From a virus (Duplodnaviria; Heunggongvirae; Uroviricota; Caudoviricetes), in the IMG/VR virus record IMGVR_UViG_3300010429_001737: a DNA stretch of 64,000 bases. One strand, 5' to 3'. The translations under genes were made by a program, and so were the position numbers. Of this stretch, positions 1,716 through 38,376 are shown in pieces; the first letter of the stretch is position 1; every line of letters starts with the position of its first letter. The notes beneath the pieces are model-generated. The model was given only the letters and a program-made list of their open reading frames with translations, was not told the DNA's origin and searched no databases.

Positions 1716-1945
1716 AAAACACTAAAGTTGAAATAAACGGAAAAGATGTAACAGAAGCAAAATGGTATGAAAAGTTGTTAATAGCATTAGCTATACCTTT
1801 TGTTATATTTTTCTTTCTAGCAATAGTTTTCTTAATATTAGGCATTGTTGTCGTTGTTATGGCTTTCTTAATAATTTTAGCATTTATTTTAATTCCAATT
1901 GCAATTATAGCAGCTCTATTGGGAGGTAAACGTGAAAAACATTAA
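1712..1945 (+). CDS. small membrane protein with two hydrophobic helices
   Basis: ATGA overlap with the preceding gene. Long hydrophobic core IALAIPFVIFFFLAIVFLILGIVVVVMAFLIILAFILIPIAIIAALLGG. Start chosen at the coupled ATG (1712) instead of the track start (1694). Confidence 0.45.
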   Translation: MKNTKVEINGKDVTEAKWYEKLLIALAIPFVIFFFLAIVFLILGIVVVVMAFLIILAFILIPIAIIAALLGGKREKH

Positions 1946-2558
1946 AGTATTTATTAGGCCATCTTTGTATCAGAAGTTAGATTTTATAGCGAAAAATTAT
2001 AAAATAGAGTTAGGTGGTTATTTAACCGGTGAAACTAAAAATGGTAACGTTTACTTATACGATATATTATTACCCGAACAGGCTATTTCAACCGTTCATG
2101 TTAATATTACACCTAGAGACCAAGTACTATTACGAAAGAAATATGGAGACAAGTGCAAGAAAATAATTGGTCATTGGCATTCACATCACGAAATGATGCC
2201 TCATTGGTCGAGTGAAGACGAAAGTAATATGCGTGAGATTATGGAAAATCAGAAATTCTTTGTTTTTATAGTATCAAGCGTTCATGGACATACTATTAGA
2301 TTAAGTATACGTGACCCTATAAATATTGATTTAGAGAACTGTGAATTGTGTCTAAAGTCGTTGTCTTGGGATATGTTTATGAATTCAGTAAATAAAATAC
2401 TCGGGAAGAACGATAGTAAATACACAGATAAAATGTTAACTGATTTTTCGTATGACGACTCATTCTCTGATGAAAAAGACGGATATTCCGAATATTGTAA
2501 CTCAGAAGAAACACCAAATTCAGAGAACAATTTAAATAGTAATAAGGATTATATGTAA
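1932..2558 (+). CDS. JAB/MPN+ (JAMM) zinc metalloprotease, a deubiquitinase-like peptidase
   Basis: E...GGYLTGE followed by HWHSHHEMMPHWSSED fits the JAMM signature E-x(n)-H-x-H-x7-S-x2-D. Confidence 0.7.
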   Translation: MKNIKVFIRPSLYQKLDFIAKNYKIELGGYLTGETKNGNVYLYDILLPEQAISTVHVNITPRDQVLLRKKYGDKCKKIIGHWHSHHEMMPHWSSEDESNMREIMENQKFFVFIVSSVHGHTIRLSIRDPINIDLENCELCLKSLSWDMFMNSVNKILGKNDSKYTDKMLTDFSYDDSFSDEKDGYSEYCNSEETPNSENNLNSNKDYM

Positions 2559-2559
2559 C

Positions 2560-3246
2560 ATGAAAAATGAGATAAGTTTTATGAGACAGAAAGATTTGTT
2601 CGACCCCGTTAATCAAAGATTTAAAATAGTTGTCTTTGGTGCTGGAAGTTTGGGTTCATTTATTACTCTAAATTTAGCTAAATTAGGTTTTAATGACATT
2701 GAAGTGTTTGATTTTGATACAGTTGAAAGCCATAATATTCCAAATCAGTTTTATAAATCTAGTAGCATAGGAGAATTTAAAGTCGAAGCATTAAAAGAAA
2801 TAGTAAAAGATTTTACAGACGTAGAAATAACTACCCATAATGTTAAAGTTGATGAAAAAACAGAAATTCCAATTGGCGAAGTTGTTTATATTATAACATT
2901 TGATACATTAGAAGCAAGAAAGTTGATTTATGAAAAAGTTAAAGATTTTAAGTGTATAGTTTTAGATGTAAGAGTTGGAGGGGAAGAATATGAGATAAAC
3001 ATTGTTGACACAATGAAAGAAAACGAATTATCAGCATGGAAAAAAAGATTTGACATTGAAGTAACAGATTTACCATGTGGGGCACGCTCTATTATTTATA
3101 CGGTAGTTAATATTGCATCTGAAGTAAGTAACATAGTTAAAAAAATAAATAACAATGAAAATTATCCAGGTCGTCTTTTAAGAACTATGAAAAATTACAA
3201 TATTTTAAACAATCTAAATCAAAAGGGAGGTAAAACATATGAGTAA
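2560..3246 (+). CDS. E1-like ThiF/MoeB/UbaA-family adenylyltransferase
   Basis: Rossmann motif VVFGAGSLGSFITLNLAKLG followed by DFDTVESHNIPNQF, which matches the ThiF consensus G-x-G-x-x-G...D-x-D-x-V-x-x-S-N-L-x-R-Q. A candidate catalytic Cys sits in DLPCGAR. Confidence 0.7.
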   Translation: MKNEISFMRQKDLFDPVNQRFKIVVFGAGSLGSFITLNLAKLGFNDIEVFDFDTVESHNIPNQFYKSSSIGEFKVEALKEIVKDFTDVEITTHNVKVDEKTEIPIGEVVYIITFDTLEARKLIYEKVKDFKCIVLDVRVGGEEYEINIVDTMKENELSAWKKRFDIEVTDLPCGARSIIYTVVNIASEVSNIVKKINNNENYPGRLLRTMKNYNILNNLNQKGGKTYE

Positions 3247-3460
3247 ACAAATAACAATCGTCGAAGGCTTGAACGGTGAAGAAAAAAGACTTACAGTGCC
3301 AGATAATTCACTTGTTTCAGACGCTTTAAGAGCTGCTGGTATAAGTGTTGGCAGTGGACGGTCAATTACTTCATTTAGTGATGCCGGTAACATAGAAGCT
3401 GGTGAGCTAGTTAGAGATGGGGAAACTTATCTTTTAACATCAAATCATCATAGCGGATAA
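3239..3460 (+). CDS. small beta-grasp ubiquitin-like protein (ThiS/MoaD/SAMP-like) ending in Gly
   Basis: 73 aa, overlapping the E1 gene. C-terminus ...NHHSG* ends in glycine. Its position right after E1 and JAB matches Ubl operon architecture. Confidence 0.5.
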   Translation: MSKQITIVEGLNGEEKRLTVPDNSLVSDALRAAGISVGSGRSITSFSDAGNIEAGELVRDGETYLLTSNHHSG

Positions 3461-5050: not shown

Positions 5051-5257
5051 ATGGACATCGACGTTATAAAAAGAAACATTGGAAAGCATTGTAAAATTAT
5101 TTTAAAAAATAATTATGAATACACAGCAGTGATACCAGACTTCAATGGTACTTCGTTTGAAATAAAGGATAAGTTTAATAAAACCACTATCATTGAATGT
5201 TCTTTCATTGCGTTTATACAAGTGCAAGATGAAAATCAGGAGGATTATAAACAATGA
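5051..5257 (+). CDS. hypothetical protein (68 aa)
   Basis: ORF coupled to the primase gene by an ATGA overlap. Confidence 0.4.
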   Translation: MDIDVIKRNIGKHCKIILKNNYEYTAVIPDFNGTSFEIKDKFNKTTIIECSFIAFIQVQDENQEDYKQ

Positions 5258-8200
5258 TTGATATTCCTGAAAATTTGAGAAAGGGTACTTATCGATTCGT
5301 TAGACTTGAGAAGGAAACCAAGCGGCCTGTTGACAAAAACTGGACTACTGAAAATAATTATGCATTCGATAGTCCTATTATAATTGACTGGATTGCTAAT
5401 GGCAATAATTATGGCTGTTGTGGAGGATTCGGAGGTTTAGTGATTTTAGATTTAGATAATATGGATTTTGTATATGAGATAGAAGATTTGTTACCATCAA
5501 CCTTTACAGTAGAAACTGGTTCTTCAAAAAGACATTATTATTTTGAAGTTGATAATCCTGAAAAGATAATTTTGGATAAAGACGGAAAACACATTGGAGA
5601 AATACAAGGTGCTGGCGCTCAATGTGTTGGGCCGGGTAGTATCCATCCTGTTACAAAAAAAGAATATAAGGTTATTAATGATATTCCAATAGCTAAGCTA
5701 GATACCCCTTTGATTAATTATATTAAGGAAAATTATTCAATAATGAAGAATTTTGAAACAAAAAGCCCGATGTGGAATAAATACCAGACGAATAGTATTT
5801 CTGACCAAATACGTTTAACTGATTTAATTGATACTAGTAAATTTAAAAAGACACCTGCCGGTGAATTGTATGGCAGTCATCCTATTCATGGTAGTTCTAC
5901 CGGGATGAACTTTTTTATTAATCCTGATAAGAATCTCTGGCACTGCTTTACAGGAAACCAAATTATTTTTACAGAGGCGGGAATGAAGAAAATAAAAGAT
6001 GTTGCTGTCGGTGAGAAAATATGGGGAACTAATAAAAGAATACAAAAAGTGAAGACGAAGTTTGCGAGGAAGTTTACTGGAAAAATGTATACAATTGATA
6101 CCAGTTATATACATCCGGCGATTAGAGTTACTGAAGGTCATCCGTTTTTAGTTGGAAGTTTGACATATAAACATCGTCGTTATTACAAAGATGATTTACA
6201 AAATGTAAAAATAAATTGGAAAAACGTTGAAAATATTGTTCCCGGAAAAGACTATTTAATGATAAAGAAAAGCTTTGGTAATTTGAATCAAATTGATATG
6301 AGACCGTTTAAGAATAAGAATCATCCATCTAGAGTTTCTGATGTTCTTTTATTAGACAAGGAGCTTGGCGAATTAATCGGATGGTGGCTAGCGGAAGGTA
6401 GCATTACAAAAACTAGTCATGGCTATCCTCGAATAAACTTTACACTATCATATTATGAAACAGAAAATATAAAAAGATTGCAATATTTATTGCAAAAAAA
6501 ATTAAAAGTTAAAGCGACGATTCGTAGATATAAGGACAGGGGAACCTCGATTATTCGAATAGGATGTGGTCCCTTTGCAAGATTTTTAGAACATTATTTT
6601 AGAAAAGGCGCTAAAAATAAACAACTTGGGATATTTGTTAATGCTAATCGTGATTTTCTTGATGGACTGACACAAAGTTATATTAAGGGTGATGGTCATG
6701 AATCTGTTAATAAACGCTCAGTTAGTTCTGTTTCGGAAAAATTGTGTCGTGAAATTCAGTTTGTTCTTTTACGACTCGGGTATAATTATAGAATGCCGAC
6801 TCCTCGACCAGCAAAGCAAAAGTTCGATAAAAAAAGAAACGTGTATTATAATTCAGCCCTAACGTGGCGAATTAATTATAATAAAGTAAAAAAACAAGAT
6901 AAGTTTTTTCAAAACGACGAATATATGTTTTTAGGTATAAATAAAATTACACATAGAACATGTCGTGAAATGGTATATAACCTAGAAACAGAAGACCATA
7001 CTTATCTTTTACCATTTATTACTCATAATTGTTTTCGTGATATGTCAGGGGGCGACTCTCTCGCGTGGATTGCGATTCAGGAAGGAATATGTCAATGTCA
7101 TGATTTTTCCGATGGTGGAAAAAAACTAAGAGGTAAAGATTTCTTAGATGTAATTAAAATAGCAAAAGAAAAGTATAACTTAAAAATCGATATGGACAAA
7201 GTCGCTAAGATGCCTCTAAAAACATGGGAGGATTACCAAATTTCACCAGTATTATTAGATAATTTATCTCTTGACGGTTTGGAATTAGTTTATTCTGAAG
7301 ATGTTAAGAATCTTAATGTTCCCGATGTTGAGTGGTTAGTTGATGAAATTATACCTATTAATTCATTTTATGTCTTTGCCGGAAGAAGCGGAGCATATAA
7401 AACATTGTCATCATTGCATATGGCTTTTTGTATTTCAGAAGGACTTCCTGTGTATGGGAAATATAAGACAAAACAAATGCCAGTTTTATATCTTAATGAA
7501 GAAAACACATGGGAAATATTTAAACCGATGGTTGAAAATGCTAGGAATGGGTTACGAACACAAGGGTCGAAGGAATTATCTTTTTCAACATTTCAGAATT
7601 TATCATTAGATATGGTTGATGTAAGTGGACGGGCAAAATTAGAGAAAATGATAATTAAATCTGGAGCCAAGGTAATATTTTTTGATTCTTTTAAGAGATA
7701 TATTAGGTTTGATGAAAATGATGCCAATAAAGTAAATGAATTTTTTAATTTTATACTTAAACCTCTTAGAATAAAATATGGATTAACAATTATAGTTCTA
7801 CATCATACAAAGAAAGAAAATCCTAACTCAAAATATACTGTAGATAAAAAGGACTTAATAAGGGGGTCTAGCGACTTAGTTAATATAGCTGATGGAATTT
7901 TATTTTTTGAAAAAGGAGTAAGACCTTTAACATATACTTTATATCAACTTAAATCTAGAGTATCAGAGGAATTCGACCCGAAGATGATAAAAATAATGTA
8001 TGATAAGGATGGGGGATTTGGTTTTGAAGAACTAACAAGTGCATCTAAAGATGTTGAAAAGTTAGCTACAGATGCCTGTGCAAATGAAATGTTTGAACAT
8101 ATTATGGCAACTAGTATGGGTGAGTTTAAAGCTGAAGTTATGCACGAAAGGTATGATGCAAAGTATAAAAAAGGCCCCGTAACAAGTGCGCTAAATAAAC

Positions 8201-8343
8201 TTCAGACTCAAGAAATATTGTTAAAGTCATCAAGAGGTATGCTTAAAGTAAATAAATTACATCCAACAGTTCAAGATTATGAAAACGGAAGAATAGATTT
8301 AGATAAATGTCAAAGGCTGTTAGATTCTGAAAATCCAGATTAA
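5254..8343 (+). CDS. DNA primase-polymerase fused to a RecA-family (AAA_25/DnaB-like) replicative helicase; intein-containing precursor
   Basis: The N-terminal prim-pol-like region (GCCGGFGGLVILDLD, HYYFEVDN) is followed by a zinc motif, HPIHGSSTG...NLWH-C. After intein removal this motif reads NLWHCFRDMSGGD. The C-terminus carries Walker A VFAGRSGAYKT, Walker B VIFFDSF and the RepA/DnaB-type IIVLHHTKK motif. Confidence 0.85.
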   Translation: MIDIPENLRKGTYRFVRLEKETKRPVDKNWTTENNYAFDSPIIIDWIANGNNYGCCGGFGGLVILDLDNMDFVYEIEDLLPSTFTVETGSSKRHYYFEVDNPEKIILDKDGKHIGEIQGAGAQCVGPGSIHPVTKKEYKVINDIPIAKLDTPLINYIKENYSIMKNFETKSPMWNKYQTNSISDQIRLTDLIDTSKFKKTPAGELYGSHPIHGSSTGMNFFINPDKNLWHCFTGNQIIFTEAGMKKIKDVAVGEKIWGTNKRIQKVKTKFARKFTGKMYTIDTSYIHPAIRVTEGHPFLVGSLTYKHRRYYKDDLQNVKINWKNVENIVPGKDYLMIKKSFGNLNQIDMRPFKNKNHPSRVSDVLLLDKELGELIGWWLAEGSITKTSHGYPRINFTLSYYETENIKRLQYLLQKKLKVKATIRRYKDRGTSIIRIGCGPFARFLEHYFRKGAKNKQLGIFVNANRDFLDGLTQSYIKGDGHESVNKRSVSSVSEKLCREIQFVLLRLGYNYRMPTPRPAKQKFDKKRNVYYNSALTWRINYNKVKKQDKFFQNDEYMFLGINKITHRTCREMVYNLETEDHTYLLPFITHNCFRDMSGGDSLAWIAIQEGICQCHDFSDGGKKLRGKDFLDVIKIAKEKYNLKIDMDKVAKMPLKTWEDYQISPVLLDNLSLDGLELVYSEDVKNLNVPDVEWLVDEIIPINSFYVFAGRSGAYKTLSSLHMAFCISEGLPVYGKYKTKQMPVLYLNEENTWEIFKPMVENARNGLRTQGSKELSFSTFQNLSLDMVDVSGRAKLEKMIIKSGAKVIFFDSFKRYIRFDENDANKVNEFFNFILKPLRIKYGLTIIVLHHTKKENPNSKYTVDKKDLIRGSSDLVNIADGILFFEKGVRPLTYTLYQLKSRVSEEFDPKMIKIMYDKDGGFGFEELTSASKDVEKLATDACANEMFEHIMATSMGEFKAEVMHERYDAKYKKGPVTSALNKLQTQEILLKSSRGMLKVNKLHPTVQDYENGRIDLDKCQRLLDSENPD
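5944..7029 (+). mobile_element. intein (about 362 aa) with a LAGLIDADG homing-endonuclease domain, inserted in the primase zinc motif
   Basis: Starts with CFTGNQIIFTE...VTEGHPFLV (N-terminal Hint blocks). Two LAGLIDADG-like motifs (LGELIGWWLAEGS and FLDGLTQSYIKGDGH). Ends with ITHN, and the next extein residue is Cys (CFRDM). In frame with the host ORF. Confidence 0.8.
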
Positions 8344-8345
8344 AT

Positions 8346-9143
8346 ATGAACCAAAAGAAGAACGAAGATAAAGCATATAGAAGAAAACGAAGGCAAATGT
8401 CACGCCACGGGAATCCCATTACTTATGCAGAACAATATCCGTACCCATGGAATAAAGGATTAACAATGGCTGATGACGAAAGATTGAAAGAACAAAGCAA
8501 ACGATTGAAAGAAACGGGAACGTGGAATAAAGGTTTAAAAAAACAAAATGATAAAAGAATAAAGAAAATTGCATTGGCATCAAGCGGAAAAAAGAATCAT
8601 TGGTTTGGAACACATGGGCCAAATTATGGTAATACAGGAAAAAAGAGTTTTATGTATGGAAAACGAAGACCCATAAACGTAAGAGAGAAAATAAGTAGAA
8701 GTTTAGTGGGTCGGTTTACTGGTCGAAATAGTCCGAATTTCGGTAGAGTACCGTCTCATGGAAAATCAGAATATGTAAAGACGTTAGGGCATTATGTTAG
8801 AAGCACATGGGAAAGAAATATTTGCTTACTTTTAAAGAATAATAAAATTACATATAGATATGAACCTGAGGTTTTCGATTTAGGATGTTTTTCATATTGC
8901 CCCGATATAATTTGTAAAAACAAAATTGTTATCGAAGTCAAAGGTTATTTTAGAAGAAATACTGACATTGAAAAGTTACGATTATTTAAAAAACAATTTC
9001 CTGGTTATCGGTTAATTCTTATCACATCAAAATCAATTCTAAAAAACAACGAAAGGGGTTTAGAGTTTATTGACCATCTTGTTAAATATGATGATTTTCT
9101 GGGATATACAAAAAACGATTTGAAAAAAATGCTAAGATGGTAA
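8346..9143 (+). CDS. putative PD-(D/E)xK nuclease with an N-terminal basic repeat (NUMOD-like) DNA-binding region; possibly a free-standing homing endonuclease
   Basis: The N-terminal half carries repeated basic G/K/N-rich modules (WNKGL...GKKNHWFG...GKKSFMYGKRRP...). The C-terminal half carries CPDIICKNKIVIEVKGY, consistent with a PD...E-x-K catalytic core. Confidence 0.4.
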   Translation: MNQKKNEDKAYRRKRRQMSRHGNPITYAEQYPYPWNKGLTMADDERLKEQSKRLKETGTWNKGLKKQNDKRIKKIALASSGKKNHWFGTHGPNYGNTGKKSFMYGKRRPINVREKISRSLVGRFTGRNSPNFGRVPSHGKSEYVKTLGHYVRSTWERNICLLLKNNKITYRYEPEVFDLGCFSYCPDIICKNKIVIEVKGYFRRNTDIEKLRLFKKQFPGYRLILITSKSILKNNERGLEFIDHLVKYDDFLGYTKNDLKKMLRW

Positions 9144-13656: not shown

Positions 13657-16600
13657 ATGGTTAAAAAACGTAGCTTATTATCACTAGTATTCTTATTTGT
13701 GCTTTCGTTAGTATTATTAGCTACAACGATATATTCTGACGATATTTCTATTGACAAAACGCCTAGAGAAATAAAATTTGATTATAATTCAATCACATAT
13801 AAAAATCCTGATAATACATATACATCGTCAATATATTTTGATGCAATAAATCTTGACAAAATTGTTAATGTTACAAATAAAGGTGATGATATAAACATTA
13901 AATGGAAGAATTATGAGGTTGATATTATATTAAACGTTAAAGAAAAAAATAAGGAAAAGATTAAAATTGGTGATTTAAAGAATTCAAATCTTGAGTATGT
14001 GAAAACGATAAAGGCTAAGGGCGATGAATATGAATTCTTTTGGTTGTTAAATGATACATCGAAGAAAAGTTTTGATTTAGAATATGTAACAATAGAAGTT
14101 GTAAATAAAACTCCAATGACTATAATAGCTGAAAATACTCAGATAATAATGGGAGATGGGTTATATATTGATTTAAACGATTTAGTCGATTCTAATTATA
14201 CGCTTTCAAAACTGAATGAGAAAGAGATTAAGGTTGAGTCTAATGCAATACTTGGTTCTACATTTGATACAGATTCAATATTATTAGACCCGACTGTTAG
14301 AATAAATGTGTCGATGGATAACTATATTAGGGGTGATACCGAGCAATTTAAATCATATAATTATGGAGCTGCAACTTCTGTTTCGATTAATTATCCTGGA
14401 ACACTAAGAACTTTAATGTATTTCCCGCTAACATCGATACCTGCTAATGCTTCTATTTCTGAAGCTTTATTATACTTAAGAGCTATTAACGGGCCAACAA
14501 CATCTGCTAATATTTCCACATACCCATTACTAAAATCTTGGAACGAAGGGACTTCTTCTGCCGGCGCTAATTCAGCATTTATAAATGGGTCTACTTGGAT
14601 GGAGAGATGGTATGGTGATAATAAAAATGATGGTTGTAGTGGAAGTACTGACCCGGACTGGTGTACAAACGGAACTGGTGTTTCTGACTATAATGCTTCG
14701 TTGCAAGTTAATAATGTTATTAGGGCAAATGCAGGAGGAACATGGGTAAATTTGTCGATGCTTACATATGTTAATAAATCAGTTCATGGAGAAATGGAAT
14801 GGTATGGGATTGTCTTTTGGACAAATACTTCTGCATCATCAGGATATCAGTTTGCTTCAAGACAATATACAACTGTAACGACATATAGGCCATATGTTAA
14901 TATTACTTATAGTTTACCAAGTCCAATAACTAATTTAATTTTTCCAGTTAATAATACTAATACATCTAATGGATTATTTAATTTTACATGTAATGCGTCG
15001 ATAGATTCTTCTTTACCAGGAACCAATATTACTAAGTTAGTTATTTTTTATTCTAATGATTCAGCCGGGGTAAATTGGAAAGGAAATATGACGTTTAATG
15101 AAACGAGTGGTATAACTGCTCCGAACAAAACAATTCAACAGAACTGGAGTACTACTTTAACGACAAATGGAGTATATTATTGGGGTTGCGCCGTGAATGT
15201 TTCGTATGGCGGCACAGATTCTAGTGGTCTTGTTCAACCAACAGCTCCGCTAAGATTCATCTTTGATAATATAGGTCCAAATGTAACATATCAAGCTCCA
15301 ACACCAGATGGTGGATATGTGTCGAGCGTTGTAATTAATGTTTCAGTTAATGATAGCTTGAATGCTATAGATACTTGTATATTACAATGGAATTCGACAA
15401 CAGCATTAACAAATTACACAATGACAAAGTCGACGGGATATTGTAATTATACAATGTCTGTTACAACAGGAACATATTATTTTAAAGTTTATGCTAATGA
15501 TTCACTTGGTAATTTAGGAAACGCAAGTCTAAGAAATTTTACGTTTGATAATACACCGCCTAGTATTAACGTTACTTATCCATTAAGTCGTGTTTACATG
15601 GATTTATATAGTTATTCTCTTGGATTAAATGTGACAGCATCTGATGTTGGTTCAAGTTTGCAGACATTTAAGTATTCTTTAAATGGAGCGGCTAATACAA
15701 CATTTACTCCTAATATAACATTAACAACATTAGTTCCTGGGTTAAATAACTTAACTGTCTATGTTAACGATTCAGCTGGAAATATTAATTCATCCTCTGT
15801 TAATTTTACTTTACGTTTTACTCCTAAGATAAATAATACAATAATTGGTAACAGTTCTACAAATTATTCACGATACAATTTAACAAACGGTTTAGTTGGA
15901 TGGTGGAAGTTTGATGAGATAACAAATAATATTGCTTATGATACAAGTTTATATAGAAATAATGCTACGTTATTTCAGAGTATGCAAAATTTGTTAGTTA
16001 ACGGTGATTTTGAAAGTGGAACATGGGCAAATGCCGGCGACTGTTGTTGTGCTTCTTGTTCATGTGTTGCCGGGTCAAATTGTTCTGCAGGCGGAGGTGG
16101 CAGTAATTGTACTTGTGCAAACGGCGGTACTTGTTATTATTTAGCTAATGTCGCGACAGATAAAATCAATGGTGATTATTCACTTAATCTTACTGGAAAT
16201 AAATCATGTGCCTGTAATAATAAAGCTATGAGTAGTTTTACAATTAATAAAACTTATACATTAAGTTTTTGGTATAAAGATGTTTCTGGTCCAGATAGTC
16301 CAAGATATTGTATGTGGATTTCGGGGAGAAATGTATGCGACCCTGCAGAGACGATTTCTGTGTCAGATAACAATTGGCATTATTATCAGAAATCGTTTAA
16401 AATTTTAGATGGCACTACTGCTGCAGCTTTGTATTTATATGGCGGTAATGGTGCAACAACAGAATCTACTAATTTGTATGATGATGTTAGAATTGTTGAA
16501 GGTCCTGGTTGGGACATTAATGGCAAAATTGGAAATGCATTATTTGTTGCTGTAAATAATGCAACAATACCACATATACCTGCGTATAATTTTACAGGTG

Positions 16601-19600
16601 GTTTTTCAATGTCATATTGGGTTAAATTTAATATGGATATGACCTCTTCAAATCCATCAGTTGCTCAAAGATTAGTTAATAAGAATAACCAATGGATTAA
16701 TTACATTGGCACAGATTCCCGTAACTTAAGATTTTATTTGAATAATGGTACAACATGGGAAGATATGTCTTTATGGTCAAGTAAAACAAGTTGGAATAAG
16801 GGCCAATGGTATTTAGTAACATATACAGTTAGTGCAAGAACAAATCCAACAATAACTCTTTATATTGATGGTTCACAAGATAGTACAACATCAAAAACAG
16901 GAACTTGGCAAACATCAAGAGGTAATATTACAATAGGGTATGCATCTGAATTTACCACAGGTGAATTAAATGGTACAATTGATGAATTAAGGTTTTATAA
17001 TTATTCGTTGACAGCAACACAAGTTAGAGATTTATACCAAGTTACAAATCCAACTTTTCAAGAGTCTTCAAATACAACCATTACAGTAACAATAATAGAT
17101 GAAGATTCACCGGCATCTAGTTTATACTACCAATGGTTTGTCGGTCCAGTTTCTGTATTATCTGGTTTAGCTCAGAGCGTATTTAATTATGTTTTCACTC
17201 AACCGAGTACTAATGTTTATTTGATAATAAACGATTCCAATAATTATCAAGTTTTTCAGAATTGGACAATAAATACAACTTACGATAATCCAACAATATC
17301 TTATGTTTTACCAACACCAAGTGATAGTAGTGTACAAACTGGCACAACTGTTACAATAAATGTTTCAGCAAATGATACATCAGGTATTGATAAATGTATA
17401 TTACAATGGAATTCAACTAGTTCGATAAACAATTATACGATGACCCGGAGTGGAATATATTGCAATTACACAGTTTCAATTGCTACACCCGGTTATTACT
17501 ACTTTAAGGTTTATGCTAATGATACACTAGGAAACTGGTTTAATGAATCGTTAAGAACTATTTTAAAAAATAGTCCTCCTGTACAACCAACTGTTACTAT
17601 TATCCCTGCTACTGCGTATAAAAATTCAACATTAAATTGTACAGCTAATACAACAGATGTGGACGGACACACAATATCATATTTTTATCAATTTCTAACA
17701 ACTAATGGTACTATTGTGCAAGATTATGGATATACTGCACCAACAGAATATTGTTATCAAGAAACAGCAAATATTTCGACAGCATGTGGTGGATTAGACA
17801 CTGGAAAATATTGGTATACTACAGACACCACAACTAATTATAATTATATTAATTATTCTAAGCCGTCTTTTGCTTCAAACAATAGCCTTTGGCATGTTAA
17901 ATATTCAAGAACGGCTAATGTTACAGTTAACTATACAATTCCATCAAGTTGTTGGGAACAAAGCACTTTAACAATGTATTTCTATCTGTCCGGAACATCG
18001 GGGTCTGCATCTAATATGCAATTTGGTTGTAAGAATGCAACGGGACTTGTTGCTATAGAAGGACCTTTTTCGTCAACGACTATTACTCGTACAACAACCG
18101 GTAGTCAGAGCGAATTATATGATGGCAATTGGGATAATGCGATAAGTTATTATAGTAATGTATGGTATCGGAACGCCGTTACAGCTGGGGGTGGCGTACC
18201 ACACGGAGTCTTTGAAGAAGCAATGTATTGGGCAAGAGAAGGAAGTTCTAATCTCTTTGATTGTAATGCCAGTTCACTGTGTGTCGCGGGTGAAAATATT
18301 ACATGTAATGTTAAAGCATATGATGGTTATGAAAATAGTACTGTAAATAATGCAACAAGACAGATTTCAGCATATGGAGCAACAACATCAACGTATGTCA
18401 TCGACCAAGCGTTAAACACTAATGTTGGTATAAATAGACGAGGTTCATATGGAAGAAGTAACTCTAATGCTTTAACTCTTATTATTAACATAAACAGGAA
18501 ATTACAAGATTTAACACAGTTTGTCGATTATTTTATTGTTTCTGTAACCATTGAGAACTCAGAAAATATGTTTAGAAGATTGAGTCAATCTATAAATATT
18601 AATGTTTTAACGAGTAGAATGTTAAACTTACAGAAAATTGTATCACAATCATTCTCGATTGATAACTTTGTTAATAAATTAAGAAGTGTTTTCAGTATGA
18701 CAACTCAATCAATTGCTCTTACAGAGAATATCGATTCAATCTTATCAGGTAAAAGGTTTACTACGCAGAATATTAATGTCGTGGATGATGTTGGTATAAA
18801 ATCAAATTTTAAGAGAAGTAATTTTTTATCAATGACAATAAACAATTTTGCTAATCGACTATTAAAATTATTTAGAATTGAAACACAAAGTATTTTATTA
18901 TATGAAAACGAATCAGATATTTTCTCTGGAAAAAGATTAGTTAATCAAAGTATTAATATTACAGATTCGACTTTCGACGTTTATTCTGGAAAAAGAATGA
19001 CATTTACTCAATTATCGGTTACAGCTTTGTCATCAGAATTTTCAAAATTCTTTAGAGTTTCTGATGATGAGGTTTCATTCTTTGATGATGTTACGTATAA
19101 TTTATTAAGGAGGAGGTTTGTGTATCAAAATTTGTCGTTTTTGGATACAACCGGTCGAGAGTATTTCGGAATTAGAAATATTGACCAAATTATCGTCTTT
19201 TCGTTGTCTTCATATAAGCCGTCGAGTCTTTACAATTCCGTGTCTTTAATGATAGGAGTGTCTGAATCGATTTATGAAAAAACAGCTATGAAAAGAGTTC
19301 TTGAGGATTTATTGGAATTCATAGACTCTATTAATAGAAAATTGTTTGGCAGTCGAGTTATAAACGATGTGATTAATGTTAATGAAGATATGTCAAGAAG
19401 AACACTATTATTAAGGTTACTTACTAATGGTATTTCAGTTGGAGATAGTGTTAATATTAGATTATTCGGAAGTCGGGTTATTAGTCAGGAAGTAAATATT
19501 AATGATGACATTTTTAGACAAAGTATAGTTTCAAAAGATATTACCGAACGGGTTAATATTTCTATCGTTAATAACAGAACATATTTAGGAAATAGAATAA

Positions 19601-21159
19601 CTATTGACTTTTTCTCAATAGACGATTTAATAAGATTGCGATTCATGGGTATCAGATATTTAAATCAAGATATAAATATATTCGCAATTAAGTTAACAGG
19701 AGGTTCGTCTATATTTCAGAGTATTATTGAATTACTTGAATTTAATGATTATGTTTCAAGAACAGCGATGTTGTCAAGAGTCTCACAAATTTCTTTGTTG
19801 TTTAACGATATTACTAATCGTATAGCATATATGTTTTTAGGACAGACTGTCACGATAGATTTTTCTGATTCTGTTGTTAGACAGGGGGACGTTCATGTTT
19901 TAATGAGTGACAACATTGAATTTGATGATTTTCTTTCACGAAGTCTAAATTTAATTAGAAATAGTTATAATGGGATTTATATAAATAATATTGTTAATCG
20001 TATAACTTACTTATTTGTCGATAACGGATTGGGCATAAATTTTTATGATAGCATCGAAAGACTCATTACAAGAAATGTCTTTGTTTCCCAAGATATAACA
20101 TTTTATGATAGTGTTGCAAGATTAAATGCATTTGTTCGAAATTTGTACCAAATCTTAGTCTTTAACGAAAATATCCCGGGGATTGATGTTCTATATCAAT
20201 TTTATCTTGAAGTGCGACAAGATATCTTTTTTACAGCTAACGCACAGACAATAAGTGATATTTCAAAAGAGTTTTATGATATAATTACGTTAAATAATGA
20301 TGTTGTCAGATTTGCTTTCGTTTCAAGAGGGGCTAGTGATTCAGTAGAAATCTTTGATAATATTGATACTATGTTAGACATATTTAGAAAACCAAATGAG
20401 ATTGTTTCTTTTAGTATTATTACGAACAGACTTTCAAGTATGACACTACATATTAATATCATTCTTGATATAAATGAGCTTAGTGATAGAATAGCTGAAA
20501 TATATCGTATAGTTTCCGTACCTTTTAATATCTTTGACTATAGAATTCGTACTTTTTTTGGGTTATCAAGTTTAAACGATTCATTTATTATTACAAGTGA
20601 AAACGGCAGGACATATTTCGGCAATAGGATAGTCGACGAAACATTTGACGTTGATATAATGACTTTGCGTATTGCAACTTTGTCAAGATTGATTGTTGAT
20701 AGTATTACAATCGTCACCGCAACAACTGTTACTGCGGTTTATGTTGTGTCTGAGTTTTTTGTAACAATTGTTCAACAAATAACTATTAATGATATTGTAT
20801 CTCGAGCGACAAATTTATATGTTATATTCATTGATGTTATTTCTGTTATTATATCTGTCGTGTCAGGAGGCGGTGGTATAATTGGGCCCGGAGGAGGGGG
20901 CGGCGGATTAGAGGTTTTAAAGAACATACCCGAAAAAATAATAGAAATAATTTCTAGTATTACCTTTTTCACTAGAGGCAACACAATGTTAGTTTTGGCT
21001 CTCTTGAGCGTAATGACTTTCATTTTGGTTCTTTCGTATTATAAATACGAGAAGAGAACCAAAAATAAGAAATATAGAGCGATTGTTATTATAATAATGG
21101 GGCTGTTAGTGATATCTATCGTCTTATGTTTAATATATTTGCTATACTATGTCACATGA
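13657..21159 (+). CDS. giant surface protein (2500 aa): signal peptide, Ig-like (DxAGN-type) domains, LamG/ConA-like domain, Cys-rich segment, about 40 degenerate 19-20 aa repeats, poly-Gly linker, two C-terminal TM helices
   Basis: Signal peptide MVKKRSLLSLVFLFVLSLVLLA. Repeated units of the form ...NYT.S.D...C...VYANDSLGN.... LamG hallmarks LVGWWKFDE ... DELRFYNYSLTATQVRDLY. GGGGIIGPGGGGGG is followed by hydrophobic helices. Extremely dense in NxS/T. Paralogous to the 38424 gene. Confidence 0.8.
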   Translation: MVKKRSLLSLVFLFVLSLVLLATTIYSDDISIDKTPREIKFDYNSITYKNPDNTYTSSIYFDAINLDKIVNVTNKGDDINIKWKNYEVDIILNVKEKNKEKIKIGDLKNSNLEYVKTIKAKGDEYEFFWLLNDTSKKSFDLEYVTIEVVNKTPMTIIAENTQIIMGDGLYIDLNDLVDSNYTLSKLNEKEIKVESNAILGSTFDTDSILLDPTVRINVSMDNYIRGDTEQFKSYNYGAATSVSINYPGTLRTLMYFPLTSIPANASISEALLYLRAINGPTTSANISTYPLLKSWNEGTSSAGANSAFINGSTWMERWYGDNKNDGCSGSTDPDWCTNGTGVSDYNASLQVNNVIRANAGGTWVNLSMLTYVNKSVHGEMEWYGIVFWTNTSASSGYQFASRQYTTVTTYRPYVNITYSLPSPITNLIFPVNNTNTSNGLFNFTCNASIDSSLPGTNITKLVIFYSNDSAGVNWKGNMTFNETSGITAPNKTIQQNWSTTLTTNGVYYWGCAVNVSYGGTDSSGLVQPTAPLRFIFDNIGPNVTYQAPTPDGGYVSSVVINVSVNDSLNAIDTCILQWNSTTALTNYTMTKSTGYCNYTMSVTTGTYYFKVYANDSLGNLGNASLRNFTFDNTPPSINVTYPLSRVYMDLYSYSLGLNVTASDVGSSLQTFKYSLNGAANTTFTPNITLTTLVPGLNNLTVYVNDSAGNINSSSVNFTLRFTPKINNTIIGNSSTNYSRYNLTNGLVGWWKFDEITNNIAYDTSLYRNNATLFQSMQNLLVNGDFESGTWANAGDCCCASCSCVAGSNCSAGGGGSNCTCANGGTCYYLANVATDKINGDYSLNLTGNKSCACNNKAMSSFTINKTYTLSFWYKDVSGPDSPRYCMWISGRNVCDPAETISVSDNNWHYYQKSFKILDGTTAAALYLYGGNGATTESTNLYDDVRIVEGPGWDINGKIGNALFVAVNNATIPHIPAYNFTGGFSMSYWVKFNMDMTSSNPSVAQRLVNKNNQWINYIGTDSRNLRFYLNNGTTWEDMSLWSSKTSWNKGQWYLVTYTVSARTNPTITLYIDGSQDSTTSKTGTWQTSRGNITIGYASEFTTGELNGTIDELRFYNYSLTATQVRDLYQVTNPTFQESSNTTITVTIIDEDSPASSLYYQWFVGPVSVLSGLAQSVFNYVFTQPSTNVYLIINDSNNYQVFQNWTINTTYDNPTISYVLPTPSDSSVQTGTTVTINVSANDTSGIDKCILQWNSTSSINNYTMTRSGIYCNYTVSIATPGYYYFKVYANDTLGNWFNESLRTILKNSPPVQPTVTIIPATAYKNSTLNCTANTTDVDGHTISYFYQFLTTNGTIVQDYGYTAPTEYCYQETANISTACGGLDTGKYWYTTDTTTNYNYINYSKPSFASNNSLWHVKYSRTANVTVNYTIPSSCWEQSTLTMYFYLSGTSGSASNMQFGCKNATGLVAIEGPFSSTTITRTTTGSQSELYDGNWDNAISYYSNVWYRNAVTAGGGVPHGVFEEAMYWAREGSSNLFDCNASSLCVAGENITCNVKAYDGYENSTVNNATRQISAYGATTSTYVIDQALNTNVGINRRGSYGRSNSNALTLIININRKLQDLTQFVDYFIVSVTIENSENMFRRLSQSININVLTSRMLNLQKIVSQSFSIDNFVNKLRSVFSMTTQSIALTENIDSILSGKRFTTQNINVVDDVGIKSNFKRSNFLSMTINNFANRLLKLFRIETQSILLYENESDIFSGKRLVNQSINITDSTFDVYSGKRMTFTQLSVTALSSEFSKFFRVSDDEVSFFDDVTYNLLRRRFVYQNLSFLDTTGREYFGIRNIDQIIVFSLSSYKPSSLYNSVSLMIGVSESIYEKTAMKRVLEDLLEFIDSINRKLFGSRVINDVINVNEDMSRRTLLLRLLTNGISVGDSVNIRLFGSRVISQEVNINDDIFRQSIVSKDITERVNISIVNNRTYLGNRITIDFFSIDDLIRLRFMGIRYLNQDINIFAIKLTGGSSIFQSIIELLEFNDYVSRTAMLSRVSQISLLFNDITNRIAYMFLGQTVTIDFSDSVVRQGDVHVLMSDNIEFDDFLSRSLNLIRNSYNGIYINNIVNRITYLFVDNGLGINFYDSIERLITRNVFVSQDITFYDSVARLNAFVRNLYQILVFNENIPGIDVLYQFYLEVRQDIFFTANAQTISDISKEFYDIITLNNDVVRFAFVSRGASDSVEIFDNIDTMLDIFRKPNEIVSFSIITNRLSSMTLHINIILDINELSDRIAEIYRIVSVPFNIFDYRIRTFFGLSSLNDSFIITSENGRTYFGNRIVDETFDVDIMTLRIATLSRLIVDSITIVTATTVTAVYVVSEFFVTIVQQITINDIVSRATNLYVIFIDVISVIISVVSGGGGIIGPGGGGGGLEVLKNIPEKIIEIISSITFFTRGNTMLVLALLSVMTFILVLSYYKYEKRTKNKKYRAIVIIIMGLLVISIVLCLIYLLYYVT
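18400..20800 (+). repeat. degenerate array of about 19-20 aa repeats (around 40 units) in the C-terminal third of the 13657 gene
   Basis: Recurring units of the form F.R...Q.I.I.D.....R, for example FRRLSQSININVLTSRMLN / LQKIVSQSFSIDNFVNKLR / SGKRLVNQSINITDSTFDVY. This segment is depleted in NxS/T compared with the rest of the protein. Confidence 0.45.
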
Positions 21160-21166
21160 AGTTTAA

Positions 21167-21203
21167 CAACAATATTTATATACGAGATTTTGTTATAAAA
21201 AAT
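21167..21203 (+). promoter_or_regulatory. leader/promoter shared by the giant-gene paralogs (..ATATTTATATACGAGATTTTGTTATAAAAAAT-ATG)
   Basis: Near-identical to 38393..38423 (AAATTTTATATACTGGGTTTTGTTATAAAGAAT-ATG). Both are followed by ATGAGAA and a signal peptide. Confidence 0.5.
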
Positions 21204-37260: not shown

Positions 37261-38376
37261 ATGAATAATAAGATTTTGCCTCTAATATTTATATCTTTGT
37301 TATTAGTTTTTACTGTATCTGCTCATATGCCTTTAACACATTGGGTTGATTTAGAGAAAGCCATTGATAAGGCGAGTGGGTCAACATTAGATTTATATGA
37401 TGCTTGTAAGAACCATCTTGATTTATGTTATGCCGGAGACACGTTAACAGATGTTTCTGTTATGTATTATTATACTTATTTTAAAAGATATTCTATAACA
37501 CATAGTCCAACTTTCTGTAGAGCATTAATTGACCAAGCAAGAGGAGAAGAAGAATTAGCATGTGCAGTTGGAGCTTGCATACATCAGGCCCAAGATTTAC
37601 CTTCGCATACACAAATGGTACCTTATGCAATCGAACATACATTTTTACCAAATCAAATCATACATCCGTTTGCAGAACAACATGAAGATAATATAGTAAA
37701 TAAACAAAACCCCGGTGCAAATGCAATTGCAATGGGAAAACTTGAAAGTTATAAAACATGTTCAGATTTATATAAAAGAGTGTTATCAGGAGAAAAAGAT
37801 TATAAAGGTATAGATTTAGATTCATTATTTGAAGCTTTCATTGCTCAGGTCCAAACGTCAGGATATAAAGGCATTTCATTTGGTAGAATTATGACAATTC
37901 CTTTCGCAATAGTAGCTGCGTATTTTGCCTTTATGGCGTTCTTTTTAACATTAATGATATTGATAGTTTTCAAGAAACTTGTTTATAGTGATAGAAGAAA
38001 GTGGTATCATTGGTTAACAGTGTCTGGTATTTTAATAGTCTTATTAATCATGGGAGGATTAGCGTTCGCATTTGCAGCTGGAGCTGGAATGACAACATTC
38101 CAATGGTTGATTTCACCAATAAGTAATTTTGTCCCAATCGGCGACGTTTCAAGTATTCAACAACAGACAATCGATAATACAGCTAATGTTCTGATTTATG
38201 GAGAAGCTTTCTTAGAGGGAAAAGACGCTTCCGGTATAAAATATCTCGAGGCTTCGAATGCTAAGATTATGACTCCATTGGTTGTAATATTAACAATTTT
38301 GATAGTTGCAACAATTTTACTGATATGGTTAAATTTAAGAACGCCGAAAAAACAGACCTCGTCATTTAGTATCTAG
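37261..38376 (+). CDS. membrane-anchored protein with a possible zinc-dependent phospholipase C / S1-P1 nuclease-like N-terminal domain
   Basis: After the signal peptide, H-x-x-THW...AIDKA and IHQAQDLPSH (H-x3-D-x3-H) loosely resemble the zinc-ligand motifs of PLC/P1 nuclease (HLWIVNRAIDI ... H-x3-D-x5-H). At least three C-terminal TM helices. Confidence 0.35.
   Translation: MNNKILPLIFISLLLVFTVSAHMPLTHWVDLEKAIDKASGSTLDLYDACKNHLDLCYAGDTLTDVSVMYYYTYFKRYSITHSPTFCRALIDQARGEEELACAVGACIHQAQDLPSHTQMVPYAIEHTFLPNQIIHPFAEQHEDNIVNKQNPGANAIAMGKLESYKTCSDLYKRVLSGEKDYKGIDLDSLFEAFIAQVQTSGYKGISFGRIMTIPFAIVAAYFAFMAFFLTLMILIVFKKLVYSDRRKWYHWLTVSGILIVLLIMGGLAFAFAAGAGMTTFQWLISPISNFVPIGDVSSIQQQTIDNTANVLIYGEAFLEGKDASGIKYLEASNAKIMTPLVVILTILIVATILLIWLNLRTPKKQTSSFSI

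What the first reader, a model, noticed from the sequence alone, without database searches (positions are those of the whole stretch)
5944..7029. LAGLIDADG intein inserted exactly in the zinc-binding motif of a primase-polymerase/helicase fusion
The 1029 aa replication protein reads NLWH | CFTGNQ...(362 aa)...ITHN | CFRDMSGGD. Removing the insert restores a CF..GGD zinc-knuckle-like primase motif. The insert has N-terminal Hint blocks (VTEGHPFLV), two LAGLIDADG motifs and a terminal HN followed by a +1 Cys. So the essential replication enzyme depends on protein splicing. The homing endonuclease may still be active, and HNH and PD-(D/E)xK nucleases flank the gene, which makes this a hotspot of selfish elements.
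Basis: seen in the sequence. Interest (0 to 1): 0.55.

Follow-up and report, generated by a model that had tools for sequence, protein, structure and literature searches.

The report
Intein splitting a viral primase zinc motif
A 362-residue self-splicing intein with a homing endonuclease sits exactly at a zinc-ligand cysteine of a primase-helicase from a likely DPANN-archaeal virus or mobile element; it is a textbook intein at an insertion site I found no report of.

Summary
ORF 5254-8343 (+) encodes a 1029-aa protein. Nucleotides 5944-7029 (aa 231-592) are an in-frame insert missing from every intein-free homologue examined: about 55 metagenomic proteins and 16 loci read at DNA level, 13 of them from named genomes. 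All read NLWH-CFR without a break.

The insert has the class-1 intein hallmarks: Cys1, block B TxxH, terminal His-Asn and +1 Cys. It also has two LAGLIDADG motifs with both catalytic acids. An AlphaFold model (pLDDT 86) matches solved endonuclease-bearing inteins (TliVMA, E 2.7e-20).

The spliced extein aligns to the DnaG-type zinc-binding domain. The +1 Cys corresponds to the third zinc ligand.

New here: the window is one of at least 17 clusters whose related inteins interrupt this zinc motif, at three points about 25 residues apart.

The downstream nuclease (T7 endonuclease I-like plus NUMOD3) is supported. The upstream "HNH" is not.

Verdict: a new member of a known kind. Splicing, endonuclease activity and zinc binding are inferred, not shown.

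The parts
5254..8343 (+). Gene for the 1029-aa precursor: Prim-Pol (AEP) domain + DnaG-type zinc-binding motif (split by the intein) + AAA_25 RecA-like ATPase
   Evidence: ORF. Pfam: Prim-Pol aa 13-149 (48 bits, cut-off 22.8) and AAA_25 aa 688-856 (82 bits). N-terminal match to pRN1 ORF904 prim-pol structures.
5254..5943 (+). N-extein (aa 1-230): Prim-Pol domain and first half of the zinc motif, HPIHGSSTGMNFFINPDKNLWH (putative ligands H209 and H212)
   Evidence: H209, H212, G213, S214, T216-F220 and W229 are invariant in alignment A1. Aligns to [11 protein letters not shown]...FH of DnaG zinc-binding domain 1D0Q.
5944..7029 (+). Intein, 362 aa (protein aa 231-592), class-1 type with an embedded LAGLIDADG endonuclease
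   Evidence: Boundaries. Profiles. AF2 model pLDDT 86, pTM 0.84. Foldseek: TliVMA intein 7qsu E 2.7e-20, TM 0.69, then PI-SceI, PI-PkoII and PI-PfuI.
5944..6153 (+). N-terminal splicing region: block A (Cys1, CFTGNQIIFTEAG) through block B (VTEGHPFLV, with T63 and H66)
   Evidence: TIGR01445 covers intein aa 1-70 at 25.8 bits, cut-off 24.5. C1, T63 and H66 are invariant in 11 related inteins.
6364..6699 (+). LAGLIDADG homing-endonuclease core: motif 1 LGELIGWWLAEGS (acid E151), conserved K226, motif 2 FLDGLTQSYIKGDGH (acid D250)
   Evidence: Pfam LAGLIDADG_3 E 9e-14 with 2 stretches. G146, G152, K226, D250 and G251 are invariant, and position 151 is E or D in 11/11. This domain matches I-DmoI structures, TM 0.64-0.69 normalised to the target. 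Coordinates.
6973..7029 (+). C-terminal splicing region: blocks F and G, VYNLETEDHTYLLPFITHN (penultimate His361, terminal Asn362)
   Evidence: H361 and N362 are invariant. The profile aligns through the terminal HN of the TliVMA intein. Note Asn where TliVMA has the block-F Asp.
7030..8343 (+). C-extein (aa 593-1029): +1 Cys593 (third zinc-ligand position), Asp596 (fourth position), GGD, then linker and AAA_25 ATPase
   Evidence: C593, F594, R595 and G599-D601 are invariant in A1. C593 aligns to the first Cys of HCFGCG in 1D0Q. The fourth position in 55 intein-free homologues is C 26, H 25, D 3, K 1.
8346..9143 (+). Neighbouring 265-aa nuclease: N-terminal NUMOD3 repeats + C-terminal T7 endonuclease I-like domain. 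A possible free-standing mobile nuclease, not part of the intein.
   Evidence: Pfam Phage_endo_I 29.4 bits (cut-off 29.1) and NUMOD3 20.9 bits (cut-off 20.4). PHROG endonuclease E 1e-14. A 30%-identical homologue sits elsewhere in related contig L001.

Best explanation
Nucleotides 5944-7029 encode a canonical class-1 intein carrying a double-motif LAGLIDADG homing endonuclease. It is inserted in frame between His230 and Cys593 of a Prim-Pol / DnaG-type zinc-binding domain / RecA-like ATPase replication protein. The genome is probably that of a virus or other mobile element of a low-GC DPANN archaeon.

**Inferred mechanism.**
1. The precursor is translated as one 1029-aa chain.
2. Cys231 (intein Cys1) undergoes an N-S acyl shift.
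3. Cys593 (+1) attacks the thioester.
4. Asn592 cyclises, helped by His591, and releases the intein.
5. An S-N shift joins His230 to Cys593.

This rebuilds the contiguous motif HPIHGSSTGMNFFINPDKNLWH-CFRD-MSGGD. That motif is a variant (H-H-C-D) of the DnaG CHC2 zinc ribbon. In DnaG-type primases this domain is known to contribute to template recognition during priming; that role is assumed here, not tested.

The freed intein would act as a site-specific endonuclease. It would cut intein-free alleles of the same motif-coding DNA during co-infection, and be copied in by recombinational repair (homing).

**Shown here:** precise insertion, all catalytic-residue signatures, the predicted fold, and a family of related inteins at the same motif.

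**Inferred:** actual splicing, endonuclease activity, zinc binding, and dependence of priming on splicing.
For: **Precise insertion**
- A single clean 362-column gap in 12 homologues, flanked by invariant W229 and C593-F-R.
- About 55 intein-free homologues have the motif contiguous.
- 16 loci read at DNA level, 13 from named genomes plus three copies of the groundwater contig, are all contiguous at the site.

**Intein signatures**
- Cys1, T63/H66, H361-N362 and +1 Cys, all invariant among 11 related inteins.
- TIGR01445 above its cut-off.
- Pfam Intein_splicing spans intein aa 7-361 and model positions 1-154/155.
- A profile of the family hits PI-PkoII at E 1e-15 and the TliVMA intein at E 1.3e-15, through the terminal HN.

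**Fold**
- AF2 pLDDT 86, pTM 0.84.
- Foldseek top hits are all endonuclease-bearing inteins, from E 2.7e-20 to 9e-12.

**Endonuclease**
- LAGLIDADG_3 at E 9e-14.
- The acids E151 and D250 plus K226 are conserved.

**Zinc motif**
- CHC2 score rises from 16.3 to 22.0 bits after in-silico splicing.
- 1D0Q DnaG zinc-binding domain matched at E 2e-4, with the alignment running across the splice junction.
- The fourth ligand position is C or H in 51 of 55 homologues.

**Homing-type distribution**
- 16 of the best 150 intein relatives lie in homologous Prim-Pol proteins and interrupt the same motif.
- The distribution is sporadic.
- One allele (P0172, 252 aa) has half of its endonuclease deleted.
Against: - No experiment: splicing, cleavage and zinc binding are unobserved.
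- Pfam Intein_splicing (28.6 bits) is below its gathering score (35.8), and Pfam Zn_ribbon_DnaG (22.0) is below its own (24.9).
- The residue aligned to the block-F Asp of the TliVMA intein is Asn, in this protein and in most alleles. This could alter splicing kinetics.
- The fourth zinc-ligand position is Asp here, a minority state (3 of 55).
- The closest intein relative is only 38% identical, and intein GC equals extein GC. There is therefore no sign of recent homing, and the endonuclease could be inactive despite keeping its motifs.
- Host and virus identity are inferred only from relatives binned in DPANN MAGs. No capsid or terminase gene was recognised.
Confidence: 0.9

Rival explanations
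1. The intein splices, but its homing endonuclease is no longer functional. It would then be a fixed, vertically inherited passenger late in the homing cycle. The element still has to splice, but it is no longer mobile.
For: - Intein GC (31.7%) and codon usage cannot be told apart from the extein.
- The nearest relative is only 38% identical, so no recent transfer is visible.
- A related site-a allele (P0172) has already lost half of its endonuclease.
- Only one protein cluster carries this exact allele.
Against: - Both LAGLIDADG catalytic acids, the conserved Lys and the Gly residues are retained. They are invariant across 11 alleles that are only 28-38% identical, which suggests purifying selection on the nuclease.
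- The endonuclease domain is modelled with pLDDT mostly above 90.
Confidence: 0.35
2. Splicing is conditional. The +1 Cys is itself a zinc ligand, and Cys1 lies next to it in the precursor. Zn2+ binding or a Cys1-Cys+1 disulfide could then hold the precursor unspliced, making primase maturation a zinc- or redox-controlled switch rather than a constitutive event.
For: - The insertion is exactly at a zinc-ligand position.
- Both nucleophiles are Cys.
- Three separate insertion points all fall next to ligand residues of the same motif.
- Stress-responsive splicing of a DnaB intein has been published (PMC6195587, abstract seen).
- Zinc inhibition of several inteins is known to me from memory only; I did not verify it here.
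Against: - Nothing in the sequence requires regulation.
- Inteins generally sit in conserved functional motifs because those sites are good homing targets and resist imprecise deletion.
- No experimental data bear on this.
Confidence: 0.12
3. The insert is a degenerate, non-splicing Hint/LAGLIDADG domain kept as a permanent part of the protein, or the gene is an inactivated pseudogene copy of the primase.
For: - Pfam Intein_splicing is below its gathering score.
- Block-F Asp is replaced by Asn.
- The fourth zinc ligand is the minority Asp.
Against: - Every residue directly involved in the four splicing steps is present and invariant in the allele family.
- The reading frame is intact over 3090 nt, and extein motifs that are invariant in homologues are retained.
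- The Asn at that block-F position is shared by most of the 11 related inteins in different host proteins, so it is a family trait rather than decay.
- No second primase or intein copy was found in the 64-kb window.
Confidence: 0.05

Closest known systems
Archaeal endonuclease-bearing class-1 inteins with solved structures: TliVMA/PhoVMA inteins (7QSU, 7QSS, 7QST), PI-PkoII (2CW7), PI-PfuI (1DQ3), PI-SceI (1VDE)
   Same: - Same bipartite architecture: a Hint splicing domain split by a double-motif LAGLIDADG endonuclease.
- Cys1, TxxH, terminal HN and a +1 nucleophile.
- The profile matches at E about 1e-15.
- The predicted fold matches at E 2.7e-20 to 9e-12, TM 0.59-0.71.
   Different: - Only 11-18% identity over the structural alignments.
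- A single-sequence phmmer search against PDB found no intein at all.
- The host protein (Prim-Pol with a DnaG-type zinc motif) and the insertion site differ.
- Asn replaces the block-F Asp.
- At 362 aa it is at the short end of this set (targets are 361-537 residues).
Inteins in bacterial DnaG and actinobacteriophage DnaG-like/TOPRIM primases (Novikova et al. 2016, PMC4760082; Kelley et al. 2016, PMC5050341; bioRxiv 10.1101/2025.01.02.630785)
   Same: An intein interrupting a primase. This fits the general bias of inteins toward replisome proteins and nucleic-acid-binding motifs.
   Different: - Those hosts are bacterial-type TOPRIM primases. Here the catalytic domain is an archaeo-eukaryotic Prim-Pol, and only the zinc-binding domain is DnaG-like.
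- The 2016 survey drew the archaeal primase as a protein with no inteins.
- I could not determine where the DnaG inteins are inserted, so identity of site is untested.
Multiple closely spaced intein sites in one motif region, as in haloarchaeal MCM with sites a-d (PMC10643990)
   Same: Several distinct insertion points lie close together in one conserved replication protein, and each is occupied only sporadically (abstract). Here three points lie about 25 residues apart in one zinc motif.
   Different: - A different protein and a zinc ribbon rather than an ATPase domain.
- No protein here was seen with two of the sites occupied at once.
- Relationships among the site a, b and c inteins are unresolved in my NJ tree.
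pRN1 ORF904-type Prim-Pol / helicase replication proteins of archaeal plasmids and viruses
   Same: N-terminal Prim-Pol domain (Pfam 48 bits; matches 1RNI and 3M1M at E 1e-3 to 4e-3) fused to a C-terminal NTPase.
   Different: - The zinc element here is a separate DnaG-like ribbon downstream of the Prim-Pol domain.
- The ATPase is AAA_25 (RecA-like). Among the relatives I scanned with Pfam, two of the eight intein-bearing ones carry D5-type modules; others with D5 or MCM modules appear in the precomputed list.

Membership tests
Intein (class 1 protein-splicing element) | In-frame insertion at a conserved site, absent from orthologues, with extein sequence contiguous when it is removed | tested here: met
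   Clean 362-column gap in 12 homologues. About 55 intein-free proteins and 16 loci read at DNA level are contiguous at NLWH-CFR.
Intein (class 1 protein-splicing element) | Nucleophile at intein position 1 (Cys/Ser) and at +1 (Cys/Ser/Thr) | tested here: met
   Cys231 and Cys593. Both are invariant among alleles and homologues.
Intein (class 1 protein-splicing element) | Block B TxxH and block G penultimate His plus terminal Asn | tested here: met
   T63 and H66 in VTEGHPFLV, and H361-N362. All are invariant in alignment A2.
Intein (class 1 protein-splicing element) | Block F conserved Asp (F:4; residue numbering recalled from memory) | tested here: not met
   VYNLET has Asn where the TliVMA intein has Asp in the profile alignment. 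Asn occupies this position in most of the 11 related inteins. From memory, this residue is common but not universal among functional inteins, so this is a variant feature rather than a disqualifier.
Intein (class 1 protein-splicing element) | Hint fold / curated profile match | tested here: met
   TIGR01445 scores 25.8 bits against a cut-off of 24.5. Pfam Intein_splicing scores 28.6, below its gathering score of 35.8, but spans the whole insert. The AF2 model (pLDDT 86) matches solved inteins at E 2.7e-20.
Intein (class 1 protein-splicing element) | Demonstrated protein splicing | not testable with these tools
   Needs expression plus SDS-PAGE or mass spectrometry.
LAGLIDADG homing endonuclease (monomeric, double-motif) | Two LAGLIDADG motifs, each with a catalytic acidic residue before the final Gly | tested here: met
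   LIGWWLAEG (E151) and SYIKGDG (D250). Acidic in 11/11 alleles. Pfam LAGLIDADG_3 E 9e-14 with 2 stretches.
LAGLIDADG homing endonuclease (monomeric, double-motif) | Fold shared with solved double-motif LAGLIDADG endonucleases | tested here: met
   The endonuclease part of the model matches I-DmoI and I-Tsp061I at E about 1e-6, TM 0.6-0.69 normalised to the target.
LAGLIDADG homing endonuclease (monomeric, double-motif) | Site-specific cleavage of the intein-free allele | not testable with these tools
   Needs purified protein and a DNA substrate.
DnaG-type CHC2 zinc-binding domain (PF01807) | Profile match at the curated threshold | tested here: inconclusive
   22.0 bits in the spliced extein against a cut-off of 24.9, up from 16.3 in the precursor. 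1D0Q is matched at E 2e-4. Most homologues carry a precomputed PF01807 hit.
DnaG-type CHC2 zinc-binding domain (PF01807) | Cys-His-Cys-Cys ligand set | tested here: not met
   The aligned positions are His209, His212, Cys593 and Asp596. The family uses H-H-C-(C/H), and Asp occurs in 3 of 55. It is a variant ligand set, and metal binding is untested.
Archaeo-eukaryotic Prim-Pol (PF09250) | Profile match above the curated threshold | tested here: met
   48-49 bits against a cut-off of 22.8, aa 13-149. Matches pRN1 ORF904 structures.

The most novel reading that the evidence does not exclude
The DnaG-like zinc ribbon of mobile-element Prim-Pol proteins is a recurrent intein target. It has three insertion points, each next to a metal-ligand position. 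In the window protein the splicing nucleophile Cys+1 is also a zinc ligand. Primase maturation could therefore be gated by zinc or redox state, making this a conditional-splicing switch on viral DNA priming rather than a purely selfish passenger.
Probability: 0.1. Interest if true: 0.6.

Novelty: new member of a known kind. Interest (0 to 1): 0.3.

Why it matters
It adds an archaeal-type Prim-Pol replication protein, and specifically its DnaG-like zinc ribbon, to the list of intein hosts. A 2016 survey drew the archaeal primase as intein-free (PMC4760082).

This motif is invaded at three neighbouring points in at least 17 metagenomic protein clusters. None of the five I looked up carries a source name. 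That gives a natural system for studying competition between neighbouring inteins and site choice.

The splice junction also marks the +1 Cys as functionally indispensable. This supports the view that the H-H-C-(C/H/D) element is a real metal site in these uncharacterised primases.

Practically, gene callers and annotators will mislabel such 1000-aa proteins unless the intein is removed. A small, divergent Cys/Cys intein from a low-GC genome could also interest protein engineers. None of this changes how inteins are understood.

Tried and rejected
- **Word-index homologue search with the intein alone** returned nothing, not even the parent protein. That reflects a limit of the index, not absence: the exhaustive HMMER search found 2612 relatives.
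- **Single-sequence phmmer against PDB** gave no intein hit. A profile of 11 alleles was needed.
- **Single-sequence AlphaFold** was unusable (pLDDT 38). It was repeated with alignment A2 (pLDDT 86).
- **Exact-sequence look-up of the window protein's contig** failed. The IMG/VR scan also found nothing. The source sample of the window therefore remains unidentified, and context came from the 54%-identical relative and from MAG titles.
- **Recent horizontal acquisition of the intein**: rejected as untestable or unsupported, because there is no GC or codon-usage break.
- **Site-a and site-b inteins as a single clade that slid by three codons**: the NJ tree with 100 bootstraps does not resolve the deep nodes, so I do not claim it.
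- **Upstream 112-aa ORF as an HNH nuclease**: it shows a CxxC...HH..P...N...CHH pattern by eye, but has no Pfam hit at E<=0.1 and no PHROG hit at E<=1e-3. I left it unassigned.
- **Additional inteins in the window**: none found with Pfam on the large ORFs or with the family HMM on all six frames.
- **Cluster look-up for source names**: none carry a name.
Full report
**1. Observation**

The window carries an uninterrupted ORF at 5254-8343 (+) encoding 1029 aa. The reported strings are present. NLWH is followed by CFTGNQ at residue 231, and ITHN ends at residue 592, followed by CFRDMSGGD. The proposed insert is therefore aa 231-592 = nt 5944-7029 = 362 aa, exactly as reported. Block B (VTEGHPFLV), the two LAGLIDADG motifs (LGELIGWWLAEGS and FLDGLTQSYIKGDGH) and the block F/G stretch VYNLETEDHTYLLPFITHN were located at intein aa 62-70, 141-153, 238-252 and 344-362.

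**2. Is it an insertion?**

A search with the in-silico spliced 667-aa extein found 61 homologues besides the window's own protein. The closest are 651-720 aa long and 52-55% identical.

- In a 13-sequence alignment the 362 residues form one clean gap in all 12 homologues. The gap is bracketed by invariant W229 on one side and invariant C593-F594-R595 and G599-G600-D601 on the other.
- A motif scan showed the contiguous string HPxHGSxxGxNF(x8)WH-CFR[C/H/D]xxGG in about 55 homologues, and no other insert at this point.
- At DNA level, 16 loci are all uninterrupted at the site. Thirteen come from named species-representative genomes: Pacearchaeota, Aenigmatarchaeota, Parvarchaeota and Iainarchaeum MAGs, plus a few bins labelled bacterial. 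The other three are copies of one groundwater contig.

**3. Is it an intein?**

Sequence profiles:
- Pfam gives LAGLIDADG_3 at E 9e-14 with two stretches. It also gives Intein_splicing at 28.6 bits. That is below the 35.8 gathering score, but the match spans intein aa 7-361 against model positions 1-154/155, which is the split arrangement expected when an endonuclease is nested in a Hint domain.
- NCBIfam TIGR01445 (intein N-terminal splicing region) scores 25.8 bits, above its 24.5 cut-off.

Relatives:
- The word-index search with the intein alone returned nothing.
- The exhaustive HMMER search of 1.84 billion representatives found 2612 proteins at E<=1e-3 and 477 at E<=1e-10. Most match the whole insert as an internal block of a larger protein.
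- In an alignment of 11 of these (A2), the invariant positions include Cys1, Thr63 and His66 (TxxH), Gly146, Gly152, Lys226, Asp250, Gly251, His361 and Asn362.
- The A2 profile hits PI-PkoII (E 1e-15) and the Thermococcus litoralis VMA intein (E 1.3e-15). The latter alignment runs through the terminal HN.

Structure:
- AlphaFold with the single sequence failed (pLDDT 38).
- With A2 it gave pLDDT 86 and pTM 0.84.
- Foldseek against the PDB returned only endonuclease-bearing inteins at the top: TliVMA 7QSU (E 2.7e-20, TM 0.69), PhoVMA, PI-SceI, PI-PkoII and PI-PfuI. These were followed by free-standing I-DmoI matches for the nuclease domain.

Independent delimitation: tblastn against GenBank phage records matched no part of the extein. 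Five of the six records matched aa 231-593/594 and the sixth aa 217-594. The matched segments lie within an NrdD gene, a portal gene and a hypothetical-protein gene, and I take them to be inteins.

One deviation: the residue aligned to the block-F Asp of TliVMA is Asn. Most related alleles share this.

**4. What is interrupted?**

The extein has three parts:
- a Prim-Pol (AEP) domain at aa 13-149 (49 bits; matches pRN1 ORF904 structures);
- a DnaG-like zinc ribbon;
- an AAA_25 RecA-like ATPase (83 bits).

The Pfam CHC2 zinc-ribbon score rises from 16.3 bits (precursor, truncated at residue 236) to 22.0 bits (spliced, extending across the junction). It remains just under the 24.9 cut-off.

phmmer against the PDB aligns YGSHPIHGSSTGMNFFINPDKNLWHCFRDMSGGDSLAWI to [38 protein letters not shown] of the Bacillus stearothermophilus DnaG zinc-binding domain (1D0Q, E 2e-4). 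By that alignment the CHC2 ligand positions correspond to His209, His212, Cys593 and Asp596. The intein therefore sits immediately before the third ligand, and that ligand doubles as the +1 splicing nucleophile. The assignment of those residues as ligands in 1D0Q rests on the name of the Pfam family and on my own knowledge.

Among 55 intein-free homologues the fourth position is Cys in 26, His in 25, Asp in 3 and Lys in 1. This is consistent with a metal site, and the window's Asp is a minority state. Zinc binding itself is inferred.

**5.

Of the 150 best intein relatives, 16 reside in proteins homologous to the window's N-extein. All of them interrupt this same zinc motif, at three points:
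- **Site a**, WH|C...HN|C(F/Y)R, before the third ligand: the window plus P0063, P0067, P0068, P0071, P0073, P0074, P0093, P0172 and a CHC2-type variant, P0064.
- **Site b**, CFR|C...HN|CxxGGG, before the fourth ligand: P0065, P0066, P0069, P0072, P0082.
- **Site c**, HG|C...HN|S(S/T)TG(M/I)NF, just after the second ligand: P0087, P0090.

In each case the joined exteins reproduce the intein-free consensus.

Two of the eight hosts I scanned carry D5_N/DUF5906 or Pox_D5 modules rather than AAA_25. What the scanned hosts share is Prim-Pol plus, where detected, the zinc ribbon.

Eleven of the twelve best non-self hits are site-a or site-b inteins. A neighbour-joining tree pairs the window with P0063 (71% bootstrap) and groups subsets of a, b and c, but it does not resolve the deep nodes. 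I therefore do not claim site switching.

P0172's intein is only 252 aa and lacks the second half of the endonuclease. That is the kind of decay expected in a homing cycle.

The five intein-bearing proteins I looked up carry no source name.

**6. Context**

*Composition.* GC is 31.7% for the intein against 31.7-33.2% for the exteins, and codon usage is not distinct. There is no sign of recent import.

*Genome type.*
- All ORFs of at least 150 aa in the region listed (21-64 kb) are on the + strand.
- There are giant Laminin_G_3 proteins, and no capsid or terminase gene is recognisable.
- The closest intein-free homologue lies on 26-69 kb groundwater contigs. These carry many small ORFs plus PolB, ThyA, RNA ligase, YopX and the same primpol-SNF2 neighbourhood.
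- More distant relatives are binned in DPANN MAGs.

I infer a virus or other mobile element of a low-GC DPANN archaeon. This is not shown.

*Neighbouring nucleases.*
- The downstream 265-aa ORF (8346-9143) is a NUMOD3 + T7 endonuclease I-like nuclease.
- In the relative, a 115-aa ORF occupies that slot, and a 30%-identical NUMOD3 nuclease lies elsewhere. This is compatible with a mobile free-standing nuclease.

*Other inteins.* None was found in the window.

**7. Mechanism and rivals**

The best explanation (confidence about 0.9 for 'a bona fide intein that must splice to rebuild the zinc ribbon') is the canonical four-step class-1 pathway using Cys231, Cys593, Asn592 and His591. It would be followed, if the nuclease is active, by homing into intein-free alleles during co-infection.

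Rivals:
- **Inactive nuclease (0.35).** The motifs are conserved, but no recent mobility is visible.
- **Conditional, Zn- or redox-gated splicing (about 0.1).** Attractive because Cys+1 is a ligand, but no data support it.
- **Non-splicing relic (0.05).** Contradicted by retention of every catalytic residue across 28-38%-identical alleles.

**8. Comparison with what is known, and novelty**

Inteins in primases have been reported for bacterial DnaG and for actinobacteriophage TOPRIM/DnaG-like primases (PMC4760082, PMC5050341, bioRxiv 10.1101/2025.01.02.630785). The 2016 survey drew the archaeal primase as intein-free. My full-text searches found no report of an intein in a Prim-Pol protein or in its zinc ribbon. 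GenBank phage and archaeal-virus records contain no relative of this extein. Closely spaced multiple insertion sites are known from haloarchaeal MCM (PMC10643990).

The element is thus an ordinary kind of thing: a class-1 LAGLIDADG intein in a conserved motif of a replication protein. What I could not find described are its host protein and its insertion site, and it belongs to a small metagenomic family that uses three neighbouring sites. I rate it a new member of a known kind, with interest about 0.3.

Noticed in passing
window 1932-3460: Three consecutive genes: Prok-JAB deubiquitinase-like (1932-2558), ThiF/E1-like (2560-3246) and a 73-aa ORF with no Pfam hit that ends in ...HHSG (3239-3460). 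This may be a ubiquitin-like conjugation cassette carried by the element.
   Followed up: partly
window 8346-9143; L001 19206-19991: A 265-aa NUMOD3 + T7 endonuclease I-like nuclease lies between the primase and the SNF2 helicase. In the related groundwater contig that slot holds a 115-aa ORF, and a 30%-identical NUMOD3 nuclease sits between the dUTPase-like gene and ThyA instead. This suggests a mobile free-standing nuclease gene.
   Followed up: partly
P0048 (1080 aa) versus P0056 (727 aa): A related Prim-Pol/D5-type protein carries a different LAGLIDADG intein in its helicase Walker A motif (GMNGK|SVVTGE...VTHN|SKYLELL). Its intein-free counterpart reads GMNGKTKFLELM.
   Followed up: partly
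P0066, P0067, P0068, P0071, P0073, P0074, P0172: Several site-a and site-b inteins carry a Cys-rich insert of about 30 aa just after block B (e.g. CPLCNKPYESYISCKPNCPRRKKDGKHNC), possibly a small zinc ribbon inside the Hint domain. The window's intein lacks it.
   Followed up: no
P0172: This site-a intein is only 252 aa. It keeps LAGLIDADG motif 1 but has lost the second half of the endonuclease, so it looks like a decaying allele of the same family.
   Followed up: no
window 13657-21159, 21126-24851, 38376-47621: Giant ORFs of 2500, 1241 and 3081 aa, two of them with Laminin_G_3/concanavalin-like domains. All ORFs of at least 150 aa listed between 21 and 64 kb are on the + strand. No capsid or terminase gene was recognised by Pfam or PHROGs, so the nature of the element (virus, plasmid or other) is open.
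   Followed up: partly
window about 7375-7400 (protein aa 708-717): The AAA_25 Walker A is deviant: AGRSGAYKT has no Gly before the Lys. G710 and K716 are invariant across homologues.
   Followed up: no
It has no Pfam or PHROG hit. It is conserved (61% over 44 aa) in the related contig, but at a different distance from the primase.
   Followed up: partly
L006, L012, L013, L014, L016: Some relatives of this Prim-Pol/zinc-ribbon protein lie on contigs binned as bacteria (Kiritimatiellia, Gammaproteobacteria, Mollicutes, 'Bacterium R3-B46'). This could reflect mis-binning of mobile elements or a broader host range.
   Followed up: no
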